Below, piece by piece: positions 36,834 through 64,000 of a stretch of 64,000 bases of DNA. The stretch lies in NCBI RefSeq assembly GCF_009914755.1, contig NC_060925.1. One strand, 5' to 3'. This DNA comes from the human T2T-CHM13v2.0 reference genome, Homo sapiens. The stretch's first letter is position 1. Each line of letters starts with the position of its first letter. The notes under the pieces are model-generated. The model did not search any database and had not been told where the DNA came from. It saw only the letters and a program-made list of their open reading frames with translations. The translations under genes were made by a program, and so were the position numbers.

Positions 36834-39800
36834 GGGGTGGAGCCAAGATGACTGAATAGGAACAGCTCCAGTCTACAGCTCCCAGCGTGGGTGATGCAGA
36901 AGATGGGTGATTTCTGCATTTCCATCTGAGGTACAGGGTTCATCTCACTAGGGAGTGCCAGACAGTGGCAGCAGGACAGTGGGTGCAGCACACCGTGCGT
37001 GAGCCGAAGCAGGGAGAGGCATTGCCTCACTCAGGAAGCGCACAAGGGGTCAGGGAGTTCCCTTTCCTAGTCAAAGAAAGGGGTGACAGACAGCACCTGG
37101 AAAATCGGGTCACTCCCACCCTAACTAATACTGTGCTTTTCCAATGGGCTTAAAAAATGGCACACCAGGAGATTATATCCTGCACATGGCTTAGAGGGTC
37201 CTAAACCCACAGAGTCTCGCTGATTGCTAGCACAGCAGTCTGAGATCAAACTGCAAGGTGGCAGCGAGGCTGGGGGAGGGGCGCCTGCCATTGCCCAGGC
37301 TTGATTAGGTAAACAAACAAGCTGGGAAGCTCGAACTGGGTGGAGCACACCACAACTCAAGGAGGCCTTCCTGCCTCTGTAGGCTTCACCTCTGGGGGCA
37401 GGGCACAGACAAACAAAAAGATAGCAGTAACCTCTGCAGACTTAAATGTCCCTGTCTGACAGCTTTGAAGAGAGTAGTGGTTCTCCCAGCACACAGCTAG
37501 AGATCTGAGAATGGGCAGACTGCCTCCTCTAGTGGGTCTCTGACCCCCGAGCAGCCTAACTGGGAGGCACCCCCCATTAGGGGCAGACTGACACCTCTCA
37601 CGGCCGGGTACTCCTCTGAGACAAAACTTCCAGAACGATCAGGCAGCAGCATTTTCCGTTCACCAGTATCCACTGTTCTACAGCCACCGCTGTTCTGCAG
37701 CCACCGCTGCTGATACCCAGGCAAACAGGGTCTGGAGTGGACCTCTAGCAAATTTCAACAGACCTGCAGCTGACAGTCCTGTCTGTTAGAAAGAAAACTA
37801 ACAAACAGAAAGGACATCCACACCAAAAACCCATCTGTACATCACCATCATCAAAGACCAAAAATAGATAAAACCACAAAGATGGGGAAAAAACAGAGCA
37901 GAAAAACTAGAAACTCTAAAAAGAAGAGCACCTCTCCTCCTCCAAAGGAACGCAGCTCCTCACCAGCAATGGAACAAAGCTGGACAGAGAATGACTTTGA
38001 CGAGTTGAGAGAAGAAGGCTTCAGATGATCAAATTACTCCGAGCTACAGGAGGAAATTCAAACCAATGGCAAAGAAGTTAAAAACTTTGAAAAAAAATTA
38101 GACGAATGGATACCTAGAATAACCAATGCAGAGAAGTCCTTAAAGGGGCTGACAGAGCTGAAAGCCAAGGTTCAGGAACTACATGAAGAATGCAGAAGCC
38201 TCAGGAGCCGATGTGATCAACTGGAAGAAAGGGTATCAGTGATGGAAGATGAAATGAATGAAATGAAGTGAGAAGGGAAGTTTAGAGAAAAAAGAATAAA
38301 AAGAAACAAACAAAGTCTCCAAGATATATGGGACTATGTGAAAAGACCAAATCTACGTCTGATTGGTGTACCTGAAAGTGATGGGGAGAATGGAACCAAG
38401 TTGGAAAACACTCTGCAGTATATTATCCAGGAGAACTTCCCCAATTTAGCAAGGCAGGCCAACATTCAGATTCAGGAAATACAGAGAATGCCACAAAGAT
38501 ACTCCTTGAGAAGAGCAACTCCAAGACACATAATTGTCAGATTCACCAAAGTTGAAATCAAGGAAAAAATGTTAAGGGCAGCCAGAGGGAAAGGTCGGGT
38601 TACCCACAAAGAGAATCCCATCAGACTTACAGCACATCTCTCGGCAGAAACTCTACAAGCCAGAAGAGAGTGGGGGCCAATACTCAACATTCTTAAAGAA
38701 AATAATTTTCAACCCAGAATTTCATATCTGCCAAACTAAGCTTCTTAAGTGAAGGAGAAATAAAATATTTTACAGACAAGCAAATGCTGAGAGATTTTGT
38801 CACCACCAGGTCTGCCCTAAAAGAGCTCCTGAAGGAAGCACTAAACATGGAAAGGAACAACTGGTACCAGCCACTGCAAAAACATACCAAAATGTAAAGA
38901 CTATCAAGGCTAGGAAGAAACTGCATCAACTAATGAGCAAAATAACCAGCTAACATCATAATCTCAGGACCATATTCACACATAACAATATTAACTTTAA
39001 ATGTAAATGGGCTAAATGCTCCAATTAAAAGACACAGACTGGCAAATAGGATAAAGAGTCAAGACCCATCAGTGTGCTGTATTCAGGAAACCCATCTCAT
39101 GTGCAGAGACACACATAGACTCAAAATAAAGGGATGGAGGAAGATCTACCAAGCAAATGGAAAACAAAAAAAGGCAGGGGTAGCAATCCTAGTCTCTGAT
39201 AAAACCGACTTTAAACCAACAAAGATCAAAAGAGACAAAGAAGGACATTACATAATGGTAAAGGGATCAATTAGACAAGAAGAACTATCCTAAATAAATA
39301 TGGACCCAATACAGGAACACCCAGATTCATAAAGCAAGTCCTTAGTGACCTACAAAGAGACTTAGACTCCCACACAATAATAATGGGAGACTTTAACACC
39401 ACACTGTCAACATTAGACAGATCAACGAGACAGAAACTTAACAAGGATACCCAGGAATTGAACTCAGCTCTGCATCAAGTGGACCTAATAGACATCTACA
39501 GAACTCTCCACCCCAAATCAACAGAATATACATTTTTTTCAGCACCGCACCACACCTATTCCAAAATTGACCACATACTTGGAAGTAAAGCACTCCTCAG
39601 CAAATGTGAAACAACAGAAATTATAACAAATAGTCTCTCAGACCACAGTGCAATCAAACTAGAACTCAGGATTAAGAAACTCACTCAAAACCGCTCAACT
39701 ACATGGAAACTGAACAATCTGCTCCTGAAGGACTACTAGGTACATAACAAAATGAAGGCAGAAATAAAGATGTTTTTTGAAACCAACGAGAACAAAGACA

Positions 39801-61045: not shown

Positions 61046-64000
61046 GGATAAAGAGTCATGACCCATCCATGTGCTGTATTCAAGAAACCCATCTCATGTG
61101 CAGAGACACACATAGACTCAAAATAAAGGGATGGAGGAAGATCTACCAAACAAATGGAAAACAAAAAAAACCAGGGGTTGCAATCCTAGTCTCTGATAAA
61201 ACAGACTTTAAACCAACAAAGATCAGAAGAGACGAAGAAGGCCATTACATAATGGTAAAGGGATCAATTAGACAAGAAGAGCTAACTATCCTAAATAAAT
61301 ATGCATGCAACACAGGAGCACCCAGATTCATAAAACAAGTCCTTAGAGACCTACAAAGAAACTTAGACTCCCATACGATAATAATGGGAGACTTTAACAC
61401 CACACTGTCAACATTAGACATGTCCATGAGACAGAAAGTTAACAAGGATACTCAGGAATTGAACTCAGCTCTGCATCAAGTGGACCTAATAGACATCTAC
61501 AGAACTCTCCACCCCAAATCAACAGACTACACATTTTTTTCAGCACCGCACCACACCTATTCCAAAATTGACCACATACTTGGAAGTAAAGCACTCCTCA
61601 GCAAATGTGAAACAACAGAAATTATAACAAACTGTCTCTCAGACCACAGTGCAATCAAACTAGAACTCAGGATTAAGAAACTCACTCAAAACCGCTCAAC
61701 TACATGGAAACTGAACAACTTGCTCCTGAAGGACTACTAGGTACATAACAAAATGAAGGCAGAAATAAAGATGTTTTTTGAAGCCAACGAGAACAAAGAC
61801 ACAACATACCAGAATCTCTGGGACACATTCAAAGCAGCGTGTAGAGGGAAATTTATAGCACTAAATGCCCACAAGAGAAAGCAGGAAAGATCCGAAATTG
61901 ACACCCTAACATCACAATTAAAAGAACTAGAGAAGCAAGAGCAAACACATTCAAAAGCTAGCAGAAGACAAGAAATAACTAAGATCAGAGCAGAACTGAA
62001 AGAGATAGAGACACAAAAATCCCTTCAAAAAATCAATGAATCCAGGAGCTGGTTTTTTGAAAAGATCAACAAAATTGATAGACTGCTAGCAAGACTAATA
62101 AAGAAGAAAAGAGAGAAGAATCAAATAGACGCAATAAAAAATGATAAAGGGGATACCACCACCAATCCCACAGAAATACAAACTACCATCAGAGAATACT
62201 ATAAACACCTCTACACAAATAAACTAGAAAATCTAGAAGAAATGGATAAATTCCTCGACACATACACCCTCCCAAAACTAAACCAGGAAGAAGTTGAATC
62301 TCTGAATAGACCAATAAGAGGCTCTGAAATTGAGGCAATAATTAAGAGCCTACCAACCAAAAAAAGTCCAGGACCAGATGCATTCACAGCTGAATTCTAC
62401 CAGAGGTGCAAAGAGGAGCTGGTACCATTCCTTCTGAAACTATTCCAATCAATAGAAAAAGAGGGAATCCTCCCTAACTCGTTTCATAAGGCCAGCATCA
62501 TCCTGACACCAAAGCCTGGCAGAGACACAACCAAAAAAGAGAATTTCACACCAATAACCTTGATAAACATCAACGCAAAAATCCTCAATAAAATACTGGC
62601 AAACCGAATCCAGCAGCACATCAAGAACTTATCCACCATGATCAAGTGGGCTTCATCCATGGGATGCAAGGCAGGTTCAAAATACGCAAATCAATGAACA
62701 TAATCCAGCATATAAACAGAACCAAAGACAAAAACCACATGAATATCTCATTATATGCATAAAAGGCCTTTGACAAAATTCAACAGCCCTTCATGCTAAA
62801 AACTCTCAATAAACTAGGTATTGATGGGATGTATCTCAAAATAATAGGAGATATCTATGACAAACCCACAGCCAATATCATACTGAATGGGCAAAAACTG
62901 GAAGCATTCCCTTTGAAAACTGGCACAAGACAGGGATGCCCTCTCTCACCACTCCTATTCAACATAGTGTTGGAAGTGCTGGCCAGGGCAATTAAACAGG
63001 AGAAGGAAATAAAGGGTATTCAAATAGAAAAAAAGGAAGTCAAATTGTCCCTGTTTGCAGACGACATGATTGTATATTTAGAAAACCTCATCGTCTCAGC
63101 CCAAAATCTCCTTAAGCTGATAAGCAACTTCAGCAAAGTCTCAGGATACCAAATCAATGTGCAAAAATCACAAGCATTCCTATACACCAATAACAGACAA
63201 ACAGAGAGCCAAATCATGAGTGAACTCCCATTCACAATTGCTTCAAAGAGAATAAAATACCTAGGAATCCAACTTACAAGGGATGTGAAGGACCTCCTCA
63301 AGGAGAACTACAAACCACTGCTCAATGAAATAAAAGAGGATACAAACAAATGGAATAACATTCCATGCTCATGTGTAGGAAGAATCAATGTCGTGAAAAT
63401 GGCCATACTGCCCAAGGTAATTTATAGATTCAATGCCATCCCCATCAAGCTACAAATGACTCTCTTCACAGAATTGGAAAAAATTACTTTAAAGTTCATA
63501 TGGAACCAAAAAAGAGCCTGCATGCCAAGTCAATCCTAAGCCAAAATAACAAAGCTGGAGGCATCACCCTACCTGACTTCAAACTACACTACAAGGCTAC
63601 AGTAACCAAGACAGCATGATACTGGTACCAAAACAGAGATATAGACCAATGGAACAGAACAGAGCCCTCAGAAATAATACCACACATCTACAACCATCTG
63701 ATCTTTGACAAACCTGACAAAAACAAGAAATGGGGAAAGGATTCCCTATTTAATAAATGATGCTGGGAAAACTGGCTACCTATATGTAGAAAGCTGAAAC
63801 TGGATCCCTTCCTTACACCTTATACAAAAATTAATTCATGATGGATTAAAGACTTAAATGTCAGACCTAAAACCATAAAAACCCTAGGAGAAAACCTAGG
63901 CAGTACCATTCAGGACATAGGCATGGGCAAGGACTTCATGTCTAAAACACCAAAAGCAATGGCTACAAAAGCCAAAATTGACAAATGGGATCTAATTAAA
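61046..64000 (+). mobile_element. 5'-truncated L1PA ORF2 (endonuclease to RT), runs off the window end
   Basis: ORFs 60988..61740, 61753..62697 and 62793..63539 are broken ORF2 pieces ([12 protein letters not shown]). Confidence 0.95.

What the first reader, a model, noticed from the sequence alone, without database searches (positions are those of the whole stretch)
39050..63540. Two L1 copies flanking HSD3B1 share private mutations, including the same nonsense codon
Seen: the full-length L1 and the plus-strand L1 from 61046 are direct repeats offset by about 22.0 kb. Both read LLKDY* (TAG at 39737 and 61738), [36 protein letters not shown] and KWNNI. From memory, L1 consensus has [42 protein letters not shown] and KWKNI. 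Elsewhere they differ in subfamily-like positions (agtgac/agagac, gtggcaataatc/gaggcaataatt, and the region after ~41560/63560). Inference: independent insertions should not share a stop plus many odd substitutions in patches, so these loci exchanged sequence by ectopic gene conversion, or one is a chimeric duplicate. If they pair, a crossover would delete or duplicate a 22-kb block holding all of HSD3B1 and its enhancer.
Basis: partly seen in the sequence, partly recalled or inferred. Interest (0 to 1): 0.8.

Follow-up and report, generated by a model that had tools for sequence, protein, structure and literature searches.

The report
Old gene conversion between neighbouring L1s
Two separately inserted L1 repeats on either side of the human HSD3B1 gene swapped short stretches of sequence long ago, which is why they share the same odd mutations and stop codon; this is a clear example of a known process, not a new one.

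Summary
A full-length L1 (c1, 36834-42999, +) and a 5'-truncated L1 (c2, 61043 to window-equivalent 65003, +) are direct repeats offset by about 22.0 kb around HSD3B1. They share all six odd peptide readings, including TAG at 39737/61738.

- **Private sharing.** Against 58 unlinked L1 copies, the pair shares 26 rare states, none at a CpG. That is 7.05 per kb against a null mean of 0.33, the top of 1485 pairs.
- **Not a minor subfamily.** Words bearing these states occur genome-wide only in these copies, plus a third local L1 for one word.
- **Independent insertions.** c1 has a target-site duplication and an empty paralogous site. c2 has other flanks and an older subfamily type.
- **Patchy sharing.** c1 and c2 are sisters (100/99) in some segments, and the clade is rejected in others (AU p 0.003).
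- **Direction.** In 39450-39893, three diagnostic sites point from c1 to c2.

Best reading: old ectopic gene conversion, a known kind of event. The tracts have since diverged about 1.5% per copy. The 22-kb HSD3B1 deletion or duplication is geometrically possible but untested.

The parts
36834..42999 (+). c1: full-length L1PA-type element upstream of HSD3B1. It is the donor of at least the 39450-39893 tract.
   Evidence: The element starts GGGGTGGAGCCAAGATG and ends in an A-rich tail. It is absent at the paralogous place of the HSD3BP1 unit, near window 2984-3012.
36820..36833 (+). 5' copy of the target-site duplication of c1 (AAACAATTGGAAGA)
   Evidence: It matches 43000-43013 at 13 of 14 bases. 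The HSD3BP1 unit has a single copy of the site.
43000..43013 (+). 3' copy of the target-site duplication of c1 (AAACAATTGAAAGA)
61043..64000 (+). c2: 5'-truncated L1PA-type element downstream of HSD3B1. It runs on to window-equivalent 65003 with a short A-tail. Its backbone is of the older subfamily type, with c1-like patches.
   Evidence: Of 37 diagnostic sites, c2 has the older state at 27, the younger at 5 and neither at 5.
39737..39739 (+). Shared TAG in the ORF2 frame of c1 (LLKDY*)
   Evidence: The 23-base word around it occurs only twice in the genome.
61738..61740 (+). The same TAG in c2
39450..39893 (+). Largest c1-like stretch, matching c2 61451-61894. It holds 9 listed shared rare states plus the TAG. 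Three subfamily-diagnostic sites (39450, 39535, 39892) show c2 carrying the younger, c1-type state.
   Evidence: Inside it there are 3 c1-private and 5 c2-private rare sites.
40086..40256 (+). Longest perfectly identical run between c1 and c2 (171 bases, matching c2 62086-62256). It holds shared rare states at 40156 and 40215.
   Evidence: P 0.0028 against random placement of the differences; the 78-base word inside it is at 100% only in c1 and c2, among 40 scored places.
40980..41030 (+). c1-like patch with 4 shared rare states (RAIKQ...IQIEK), matching c2 62978-63028
41243..41392 (+). c1-like patch with shared rare states 41299, 41358 and 41392, matching c2 63241-63390. The first two are also carried by a third L1 (c3) about 100 kb upstream.
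39100..39297 (+). 5' region with shared rare states at 39119, 39273/39274 and 39297, interspersed with private changes of both copies
40257..40796 (+). Segment where c1 and c2 are not sisters (matching c2 62257-62794). c2 keeps the older-type states at 40333, 40343 and 40364.
41546..42993 (+). 3' segment where c1 and c2 are not sisters. It has only 2 shared rare states.
58889..61045 (-). Older inverted L1 into which c2 is set. It is not a detectable partner in the exchange.
46389..54244 (+). HSD3B1, lying between the two direct L1 repeats
   Evidence: The annotation given with the finding.

Best explanation
c1 and c2 are two separate retrotransposition insertions of L1PA-type elements of different age classes, with c2 the older type. 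They lie 22 kb apart in the same orientation on either side of HSD3B1. After both were in place, and after c1 had picked up private mutations including the TAG in ORF2, non-allelic (ectopic) gene conversion copied short stretches between them. These stretches are tens to a few hundred bases long. For the stretch 39450-39893 the direction was c1 to c2. This left c2 as an older-type backbone carrying c1-like patches between about 39.1 and 41.5 kb, while the 3' 1.4 kb was left almost untouched. The exchange is old, because the patches have since diverged about 1.5% in each copy. A third L1 100 kb upstream (c3, inverted) shares one patch of about 100 bases.

Shown: independent insertion, private shared states, the mosaic and the conflicting trees. 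Inferred: the mechanism (mismatch repair of heteroduplex during repair of a break from the paralogous copy), the number of events, and the dating.
For: 1. **Independent origin.** c1 has a 13-of-14-base target-site duplication, and the site is empty in the paralogous HSD3BP1 unit. The flanks of c2 are an old inverted L1, unrelated to the flanks of c1. The similarity stops at the L1 ends.

2. **Different type.** At 37 sites that separate 14 older-type from 44 other copies, c2 is older-type at 27, younger at 5 and neither at 5. c1 is older at 19, younger at 17 and neither at 1. Where c1 is younger-type (17 sites), c2 is older-type at 10.

3. **Private sharing.** There are 26 shared rare states, and the pair is top of 1485 pairs. 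None of the 26 is at a CpG.

4. **Genome-wide word searches.**
   - The 23-base word with K and TAG occurs 2 times, against 0 for the control.
   - The 75-base and 78-base words at 39828 and 40147 are at 100% only in c1 and c2, among 40 scored places each.
   - The 78-base word at 41290 is at 100% only in c1, c2 and c3.
   - Its 8 one-mismatch hits each carry only one of the two rare states.

5. **Mosaic.**
   - The differences are overdispersed. The variance-to-mean ratio is 3.1, the top of 153 pairs, with P 0.0002.
   - Of 126 informative sites, 39 are c1-like and 87 older-like. They fall in 33 runs against 54.9 +/- 4.8 expected (P 5e-5).
   - c1 and c2 form a clade at 100/99 in 39530-40256 plus 40797-41545.
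   - That clade is rejected in 40257-40796 plus 41546-42993 (log-likelihood difference 37.9, AU p 0.0028).

6. **Direction.** c2 carries the younger, c1-type state at 39450, 39535 and 39892, inside a patch of shared rare states.

7. **Ages fit.** In the shared bins, private changes are equal (16 in c1, 18 in c2). Elsewhere c2 has more (85 against 49), as expected if c2 is the older insertion.

8. **Precedent.** Conversion between L1PA copies is reported in PMC5829575 (passages read). Distance-dependent conversion among repeats is reviewed in PMC6598467 (passages read).
Against: - No outgroup species was available, so the state before conversion is inferred, not seen.
- The segments used for the tree and AU tests were chosen after looking at the data, so those p-values are optimistic. 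The runs test and the dispersion test do not depend on that choice.
- Shared rare states are interspersed with private changes of both copies, so tract limits and the number of events are uncertain. Isolated shared states outside the patches (40572, 42128, 42384) are not well explained by tracts.
- The panel is small and biased. There are 58 copies, and each genome search scored only 40 of 155 to 31,893 candidates. Only 5 of the best hits of c2 could be fetched.
- Subfamilies were not named with a repeat library.
- No GC bias is seen among the shared states (odds ratio 1.37, p 0.51).
- Direction is shown for one stretch only.
Confidence: 0.8

Rival explanations
1. Parent and offspring, or siblings. 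c2 was retrotransposed from c1 or from a private source shared with c1, so the shared states are inherited. Other, older L1 copies later overwrote the unlike segments of c2.
For: c1 and c2 are sisters on the whole alignment (support 0.999). Shared rare states occur over 3.3 kb. c1 is full length, so it could in principle be transcribed.
Against: - c2 carries the older-type state at 10 of the 17 diagnostic sites where c1 is younger-type, and 87 of 126 informative sites are not c1-like.
- The c1+c2 clade is rejected in 2051 columns.
- c2 has more private changes than c1, 108 against 64, the opposite of what a daughter should show.
- The source would already have carried a stop in ORF2.
- The daughter would have had to land 18 kb from its parent.
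- No donor for the supposed overwriting was found. c3 shares only 5 rare states with c2 alone, and the old inverted L1 gives no signal.
Confidence: 0.08
2. Chimera made at insertion. c2 was built from two templates, by template switching or recombination of the cDNA, one of them c1 RNA or DNA.
For: c2 has no recognisable target-site duplication, and about 2.2 kb of the host L1 is missing at its site. Its insertion was therefore not a textbook one.
Against: At least eight alternating patches would need many switches. The patches carry c1's private changes, and both copies have diverged equally since, which an exchange between resident copies explains more simply. The host L1 at the site is inverted and much older.
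Confidence: 0.05
3. Minor subfamily or parallel mutation. The shared states belong to a small L1 lineage or arose twice at mutable sites.
For: Single rare states do recur in unlinked copies. The 25-base word with two of them has 3 further places on two other chromosomes. TAG alone occurs in 8 of 24 copies picked with a TAG-bearing query.
Against: - Combinations are confined to this locus.
- The outside carriers of the 25-base word share only 3 and 2 of 6 rare sites in 350 bases, and are 92.6% and 91.7% identical to c1, against 97.7% for c2.
- None of the 26 shared states is at a CpG.
- The pair is far above all 1484 other pairs.
Confidence: 0.03
4. Segmental duplication or assembly artefact. 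One copy is a DNA-level duplicate of the other, or the assembly repeats a stretch.
For: The locus is a cluster of tandem duplications of GAPDH-pseudogene and HSD3B units at 80-86% identity.
Against: The homology ends exactly at the L1 ends, with different flanks. c1 sits in a site that is empty in the paralogous unit. The copies differ at 244 events in 3967 columns, which is unlike an assembly duplicate.
Confidence: 0.02

Closest known systems
Non-allelic (interlocus, ectopic) gene conversion between dispersed retrotransposon copies. Examples are L1PA3-L1PA3 and L1PA7-L1PA7 conversions seen in long reads (PMC5829575, passages read) and conversion among neighbouring Alu elements (reviewed in PMC6598467, passages read; PMC8230782, search listing only).
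   Same: Two independently inserted, similar repeats close together on one chromosome. Short tracts are copied from one to the other without a crossover. The signature is a mosaic of subfamily-diagnostic and private sites, with trees that disagree along the element.
   Different: Here the event is old and fixed in the reference, not a polymorphism. It involves elements of two age classes and many short patches over 2.5 kb. It carried a nonsense codon across, and a third copy 100 kb away in the opposite orientation shares one patch. The 22-kb spacing is greater than the <10 kb range reported as most active for Alu (PMC6598467 passage, citing Aleshin and Zhi 2010).
Transposable-element-mediated rearrangements, or L1 recombination-associated deletions (PMC9675761, passages read)
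   Same: Direct L1 repeats of about 93-95% identity. That paper reports a median similarity of 93.5% for L1 pairs in rearrangements driven by homologous recombination.
   Different: No crossover product is seen here, and gene order is intact. No HSD3B entry occurs in the one supplementary file of that paper held as text. That file covers only three people.
Concerted evolution of tandemly duplicated gene families
   Same: The setting is a tandem cluster (HSD3B genes and pseudogenes with GAPDH pseudogenes), where paralogous pairing is expected.
   Different: The exchanging sequences are not paralogous parts of the duplicated unit. They are later L1 insertions at non-corresponding places in the units.

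Membership tests
Ectopic gene conversion between dispersed repeats | The two sequences are non-allelic and of independent origin | tested here: met
   c1 has a target-site duplication and an empty paralogous site. c2 has other flanks and another subfamily type.
Ectopic gene conversion between dispersed repeats | Derived states private to the pair, in excess over unrelated pairs | tested here: met
   26 shared rare states, top of 1485 pairs. The words bearing them are confined to this locus genome-wide.
Ectopic gene conversion between dispersed repeats | Mosaic structure: the relationship changes along the sequence | tested here: met
   Runs test P 5e-5 and dispersion P 0.0002. The clade has 100/99 support in some segments and is rejected in others at AU p 0.0028. 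The segments were chosen after seeing the data.
Ectopic gene conversion between dispersed repeats | No exchange of flanks (no crossover) | tested here: met
   The flanks differ and gene order is as annotated.
Ectopic gene conversion between dispersed repeats | The unconverted state is seen at the orthologous locus of an outgroup species | not testable with these tools
   Only this one genome is held, with no ape or monkey assemblies.
Ectopic gene conversion between dispersed repeats | GC-biased transmission (often, but not always, present) | tested here: inconclusive
   Among shared states, 12 are weak-to-strong and 11 strong-to-weak. Among private states the counts are 62 and 78. Odds ratio 1.37, p 0.51.
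Segmental-duplication paralogues | Homology continues into the flanks on both sides | tested here: not met
   The alignment stops at the L1 ends.
Parent-daughter retrotransposition | The daughter carries the parent's subfamily states throughout and is no more diverged than the parent | tested here: not met
   c2 is older-type at 10 of the 17 sites where c1 is younger-type. c2 has 108 private changes against 64 in c1.
Recombination substrate for loss or gain of the interval (NAHR or TE-mediated rearrangement) | Direct orientation and high similarity | tested here: met
   Same strand, 93.4-94.6% identity, longest perfect run 171 bases.
Recombination substrate for loss or gain of the interval (NAHR or TE-mediated rearrangement) | An observed deletion or duplication with breakpoints in the two repeats | not tested
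   No population or pangenome data are at hand. Literature searches found none.

The most novel reading that the evidence does not exclude
The HSD3B cluster may be a local hotspot of non-allelic pairing. Under this reading, later L1 insertions up to 100 kb apart and in either orientation exchange sequence, and the c1-c2 pair still acts today as a substrate for recurrent 22-kb deletions or duplications of the whole HSD3B1 gene in human populations.
Probability: 0.07. Interest if true: 0.6.

Novelty: new member of a known kind. Interest (0 to 1): 0.3.

Why it matters
- **For dating repeats.** This is a well-documented case in which repeats that look like independent neutral clocks have exchanged sequence. 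Anyone dating or classifying these L1 copies by divergence or diagnostic sites would be misled: c2 would look younger and closer to c1 than it is.
- **For the cluster.** It shows that paralogous pairing has occurred across the interval that holds HSD3B1, the placental and peripheral 3-beta-hydroxysteroid dehydrogenase gene. That gives a concrete pair of breakpoints to look for in structural-variant sets.
- **Limits.** It does not show that such variants exist, and the mechanism itself is textbook.

Tried and rejected
- **Conversion of c2 by the adjacent old inverted L1.** c2-private rare states match it at 12 of 67 sites, against 3 of 54 for c1-private states. But the carriers are scattered, and identity to the old L1 in nine 150-base windows is no higher for c2 than for other copies. 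Not supported.
- **GC-biased conversion.** No signal.
- **Parallel CpG decay.** 0 of 26 shared states lie at a CpG.
- **Minor subfamily.** Rejected by the genome-wide words.
- **Segmental duplication.** Rejected by the flanks.
- **c3 as a full third partner.** c3 shares 3 rare states with both copies, 5 with c2 alone and 2 with c1 alone. Its labels are not clustered (27 runs against 29.1 expected, P 0.28). Only the patch at 41288-41391 stands out.
- **Gapped patterns joining two rare sites.** The genome tool does not accept them. I used plain DNA queries instead.
- **A larger panel of the relatives of c2.** I fetched 5 of the 40 hits and some short pieces.
- **Literature on an HSD3B1 copy-number variant or on this exchange.**
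  - One search found one paper, on an unrelated gene.
  - Searches found only runs of homozygosity.
  - One search found no occurrence in the one supplementary file held.
  - So I found nothing in print in these searches.
- **Naming the L1PA subfamilies.** No repeat library is at hand, so 'older type' and 'younger type' are defined only by my panel.

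
Full report
**What is there.**
The window is part of the human HSD3B cluster. A self-comparison shows tandem units of a GAPDH pseudogene plus an HSD3B gene or pseudogene at 80-86% identity. For example, 1166-15338 matches 34973-56174 in pieces.

Two L1 elements lie on the + strand on either side of HSD3B1.
- **c1** is full length (36834-42999). It starts with the usual L1 5' end, ends in an A-rich tail, and is flanked by a 14-base target-site duplication: AAACAATTGGAAGA at 36820-36833 and AAACAATTGAAAGA at 43000-43013. 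The matching place in the HSD3BP1 unit, near 2984-3012, has one copy of that site and no L1. So c1 went in after the units had duplicated.
- **c2** begins at 61043, 5'-truncated at the point that matches 39046 of c1. It runs off the window. With the next 6 kb fetched, it ends at window-equivalent 65003 in a short A-tail. It sits inside a much older inverted L1 (58889-61045, and again from about 65044), with no shared flank with c1.

**The observation.**
c1 39046-41997 and c2 61043-63994 align at 94.6% over 2956 columns. The whole overlap aligns at 93.4% over 3967 columns.

For the last two, 24 and 25 of the 58 do not cover the site.

**Is the sharing more than chance?**
The window's own genome can be searched. 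I collected 58 unlinked L1 copies.
- 24 came from a search with a 91-base query around the TAG.
- 29 came from a search with the 2952-base overlap of c1.
- 5 were the best full-length hits of c2.
- Four short rows were dropped before the later counts.

In overall identity the two copies are nothing special to each other. Unlinked copies are 92.5-95.3% identical to c1. By identity, the partner ranks 50th of 59 for c1 and 13th of 59 for c2.

Yet there are 26 columns where c1 and c2 agree on a state carried by at most 10% of the unlinked copies, and 13 of these have no other carrier. The same count over all 1485 pairs with at least 2000 shared columns has a mean of 0.33 per kb, a median of 0 and a 99th percentile of 2.17. 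c1-c2 is first at 7.05 per kb. The next pair, at 4.35, is two nearly identical young copies.

None of the 26 lies at a CpG of the common state, and many are transversions. TAG itself is absent from all 34 copies picked by long queries. It is present in 8 of 24 copies picked with the TAG-bearing 91-base query, so on its own it recurs.

**Is it a minor subfamily?**
Exact or best-hit searches of the whole genome with words that bear two rare states gave these results.

| Word (window place) | Result |
|---|---|
| 23 bases, with K and TAG | 2 places, both here; control 0 |
| 75 bases, 39828-39902 | 100% only in c1 and c2, among 40 scored of 155 candidates |
| 78 bases, 40147-40224 | 100% only in c1 and c2, among 40 scored of 168 candidates |
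| 78 bases, 41290-41367 | 100% in c1, c2 and a third copy on the same chromosome arm, among 40 scored of 370 candidates |
| 25 bases, 39598-39622 | 5 places: c1, c2, one on another autosome, two on the Y |

- The eight one-mismatch hits of the 41290-41367 word each carry only one of its two rare states: 5 carry one and 3 the other.
- In 350 bases around the 25-base word, the outside copies share only 3 and 2 of 6 rare sites. They are 92.6% and 91.7% identical to c1, against 97.7% for c2.

So single states recur, as expected among thousands of copies, but the set is confined to this locus. A limit applies: each DNA search scores only 40 candidates, so these are not complete censuses.

**Independent insertions of different type.**
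Sites that are polymorphic in the panel sort it into an older-looking group of 14 copies and 44 others. At 37 sites where the two groups differ:
- c2 has the older state at 27, the younger at 5 and neither at 5.
- c1 is intermediate, with 19 older, 17 younger and 1 neither.
- At the 17 sites where c1 is younger-type, c2 is older-type at 10.

c2 also has more private changes than c1, 108 against 64. A daughter of c1 could show neither feature.

I could not name the subfamilies, because no repeat library is at hand.

**The mosaic.**
- **Spread of differences.** The differences between c1 and c2 are unevenly spread. Per 250 bases they run from 4 or 5 up to 22 or 27. The variance-to-mean ratio is 3.1, with P 0.0002 against random placement. 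This is the highest of 153 pairs among 18 rows with full coverage, where the others have a mean of 1.07 and a maximum of 2.67. The longest perfect run is 171 bases at 40086-40256 (P 0.0028).
- **Runs of labels.** I labelled each informative site of c2 as c1-like or older-group-like. That gives 39 and 87 of 126, falling in 33 runs where 54.9 +/- 4.8 are expected (P 5e-5). In control copies, 2 of 128, 18 of 118 and 20 of 116 sites are c1-like.
- **Patches.** c1-like patches lie at about 39100-39297, 39450-39612, 39730-39775, 39837-39893, 40156-40215, 40980-41030 and 41299-41392. Older-type stretches lie between them, and from 41555 to the 3' end.
- **Trees.**
  - In 39530-40256 plus 40797-41545 (1517 columns, 18 rows), c1 and c2 form a clade with support 100/99. 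The common stem is 0.0163, and the tips are 0.0152 and 0.0154.
  - In 40257-40796 plus 41546-42993 (2051 columns, the same rows), the best tree that holds them together is worse by 37.9 log-likelihood units (AU p 0.0028).
  - FastTree on single segments gives the same picture.
  - The segment limits were set after seeing the bins, so these two tests are not blind. The runs and dispersion tests are.
- **Private changes.** They behave as conversion predicts. In the shared bins c1 has 16 and c2 has 18. In the rest c1 has 49 and c2 has 85.

**Direction and age.**
Within 39450-39893, c2 carries the younger, c1-type state at three diagnostic sites (39450, 39535, 39892), in an element that is otherwise of the older type. 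So this stretch, which holds K and TAG, went from c1 to c2. The stop therefore arose in c1 and was copied. For the other patches no diagnostic site decides the direction.

The equal tips (about 1.5% each) and the stem (1.6%) in the shared segments mean two things. The exchange happened after c1 had gathered about half of its present private changes, and long ago. At recalled neutral rates of roughly 0.1-0.17% per million years, that is on the order of ten million years. This dating is an inference. It averages what may be several events.

**A third copy.**
The 78-base word led to c3, at chr1:119,412,559-119,416,711 on the - strand, about 100 kb upstream between HAO2 and HSD3B2. It is a separate 5'-truncated insertion of the older type. 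Its site is empty in the two paralogous stretches that I could see, at window positions near 33296 and near 69114.

c3 is identical to c1 over 41288-41391 and carries both rare states there. Otherwise it shares little: 3 rare states with both copies, 5 with c2 alone and 2 with c1 alone. Its labels are not clustered. So one short patch seems to have passed among three copies.

**Rivals.**
Parent-daughter or sibling descent, a chimera made at insertion, a minor subfamily or parallel mutation, and segmental duplication or misassembly are weighed in the Rival explanations section. Each fails at least one direct test above.

**What is known.**
Conversion between L1PA copies has been seen directly in long reads. 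[quoted passage not shown] Non-allelic conversion among repeats, and its dependence on distance and identity, is reviewed in PMC6598467 (passages read).

L1 pairs that mediate rearrangements by homologous recombination have a median similarity of 93.5% (PMC9675761, passages read). c1 and c2 are therefore the kind of pair that can recombine. I found no report of this exchange or of an HSD3B1 copy-number variant. Structural-variant databases and other supplements were not available to me.

**Verdict.**
It is a clean, multi-patch example of a known process, with a donor direction and a third participant as modest extras. The crossover risk to HSD3B1 remains a hypothesis.

Noticed in passing
L069 2059-6211 (chr1:119,412,559-119,416,711, - strand; about 100 kb upstream of c1, outside the window): A third, separately inserted 5'-truncated L1 of the older type. 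It is identical to c1 over 41288-41391 and carries two of the rare states shared by c1 and c2. The two paralogous stretches within reach have an empty site.
   Followed up: partly
window 61043-61045, and L063 about 5003-5044 (window-equivalent 65003-65044): c2 has no recognisable target-site duplication. The old inverted L1 that hosts it lacks about 2.2 kb at the insertion point: it matches c1 position 40218 on one side and about 38025 on the other. This suggests a target-site deletion or an atypical insertion.
   Followed up: no
window 41040-41063: Four c1-private rare changes lie within 24 bases, just after a shared patch. This is either the edge of a tract or one multi-base event in c1.
   Followed up: no
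window 39282-39283: c1 lacks 4 bases (a frameshift) that c2 and the unlinked copies have, between shared rare sites at 39274 and 39297. The deletion therefore came after the exchange, or lay outside the tract.
   Followed up: no
window 1166-15338 against 34973-56174; also 21588-22382 against 56196-56994, and 29010-30695 against 57209-58887: The HSD3BP1 and HSD3B1 units are paralogous at 80-86% identity in many pieces. The stretch downstream of HSD3B1 is homologous to two separated stretches downstream of HSD3BP1, so about 6 to 20 kb has been inserted or lost between the units.
   Followed up: no
L066 and L067 (two places about 40 Mb apart on contig C9): These two L1 copies are nearly identical (tip lengths 0.003 and 0.001) and share the same pattern at all panel-polymorphic sites. 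They probably belong to a recent large duplication on that chromosome.
   Followed up: no
Two places on contig C24 (the Y), 1.6 Mb apart; The 25-base word with two of the rare states occurs twice on the Y on the same strand, probably in duplicated Y sequence. Only one of the two was looked at.
   Followed up: partly
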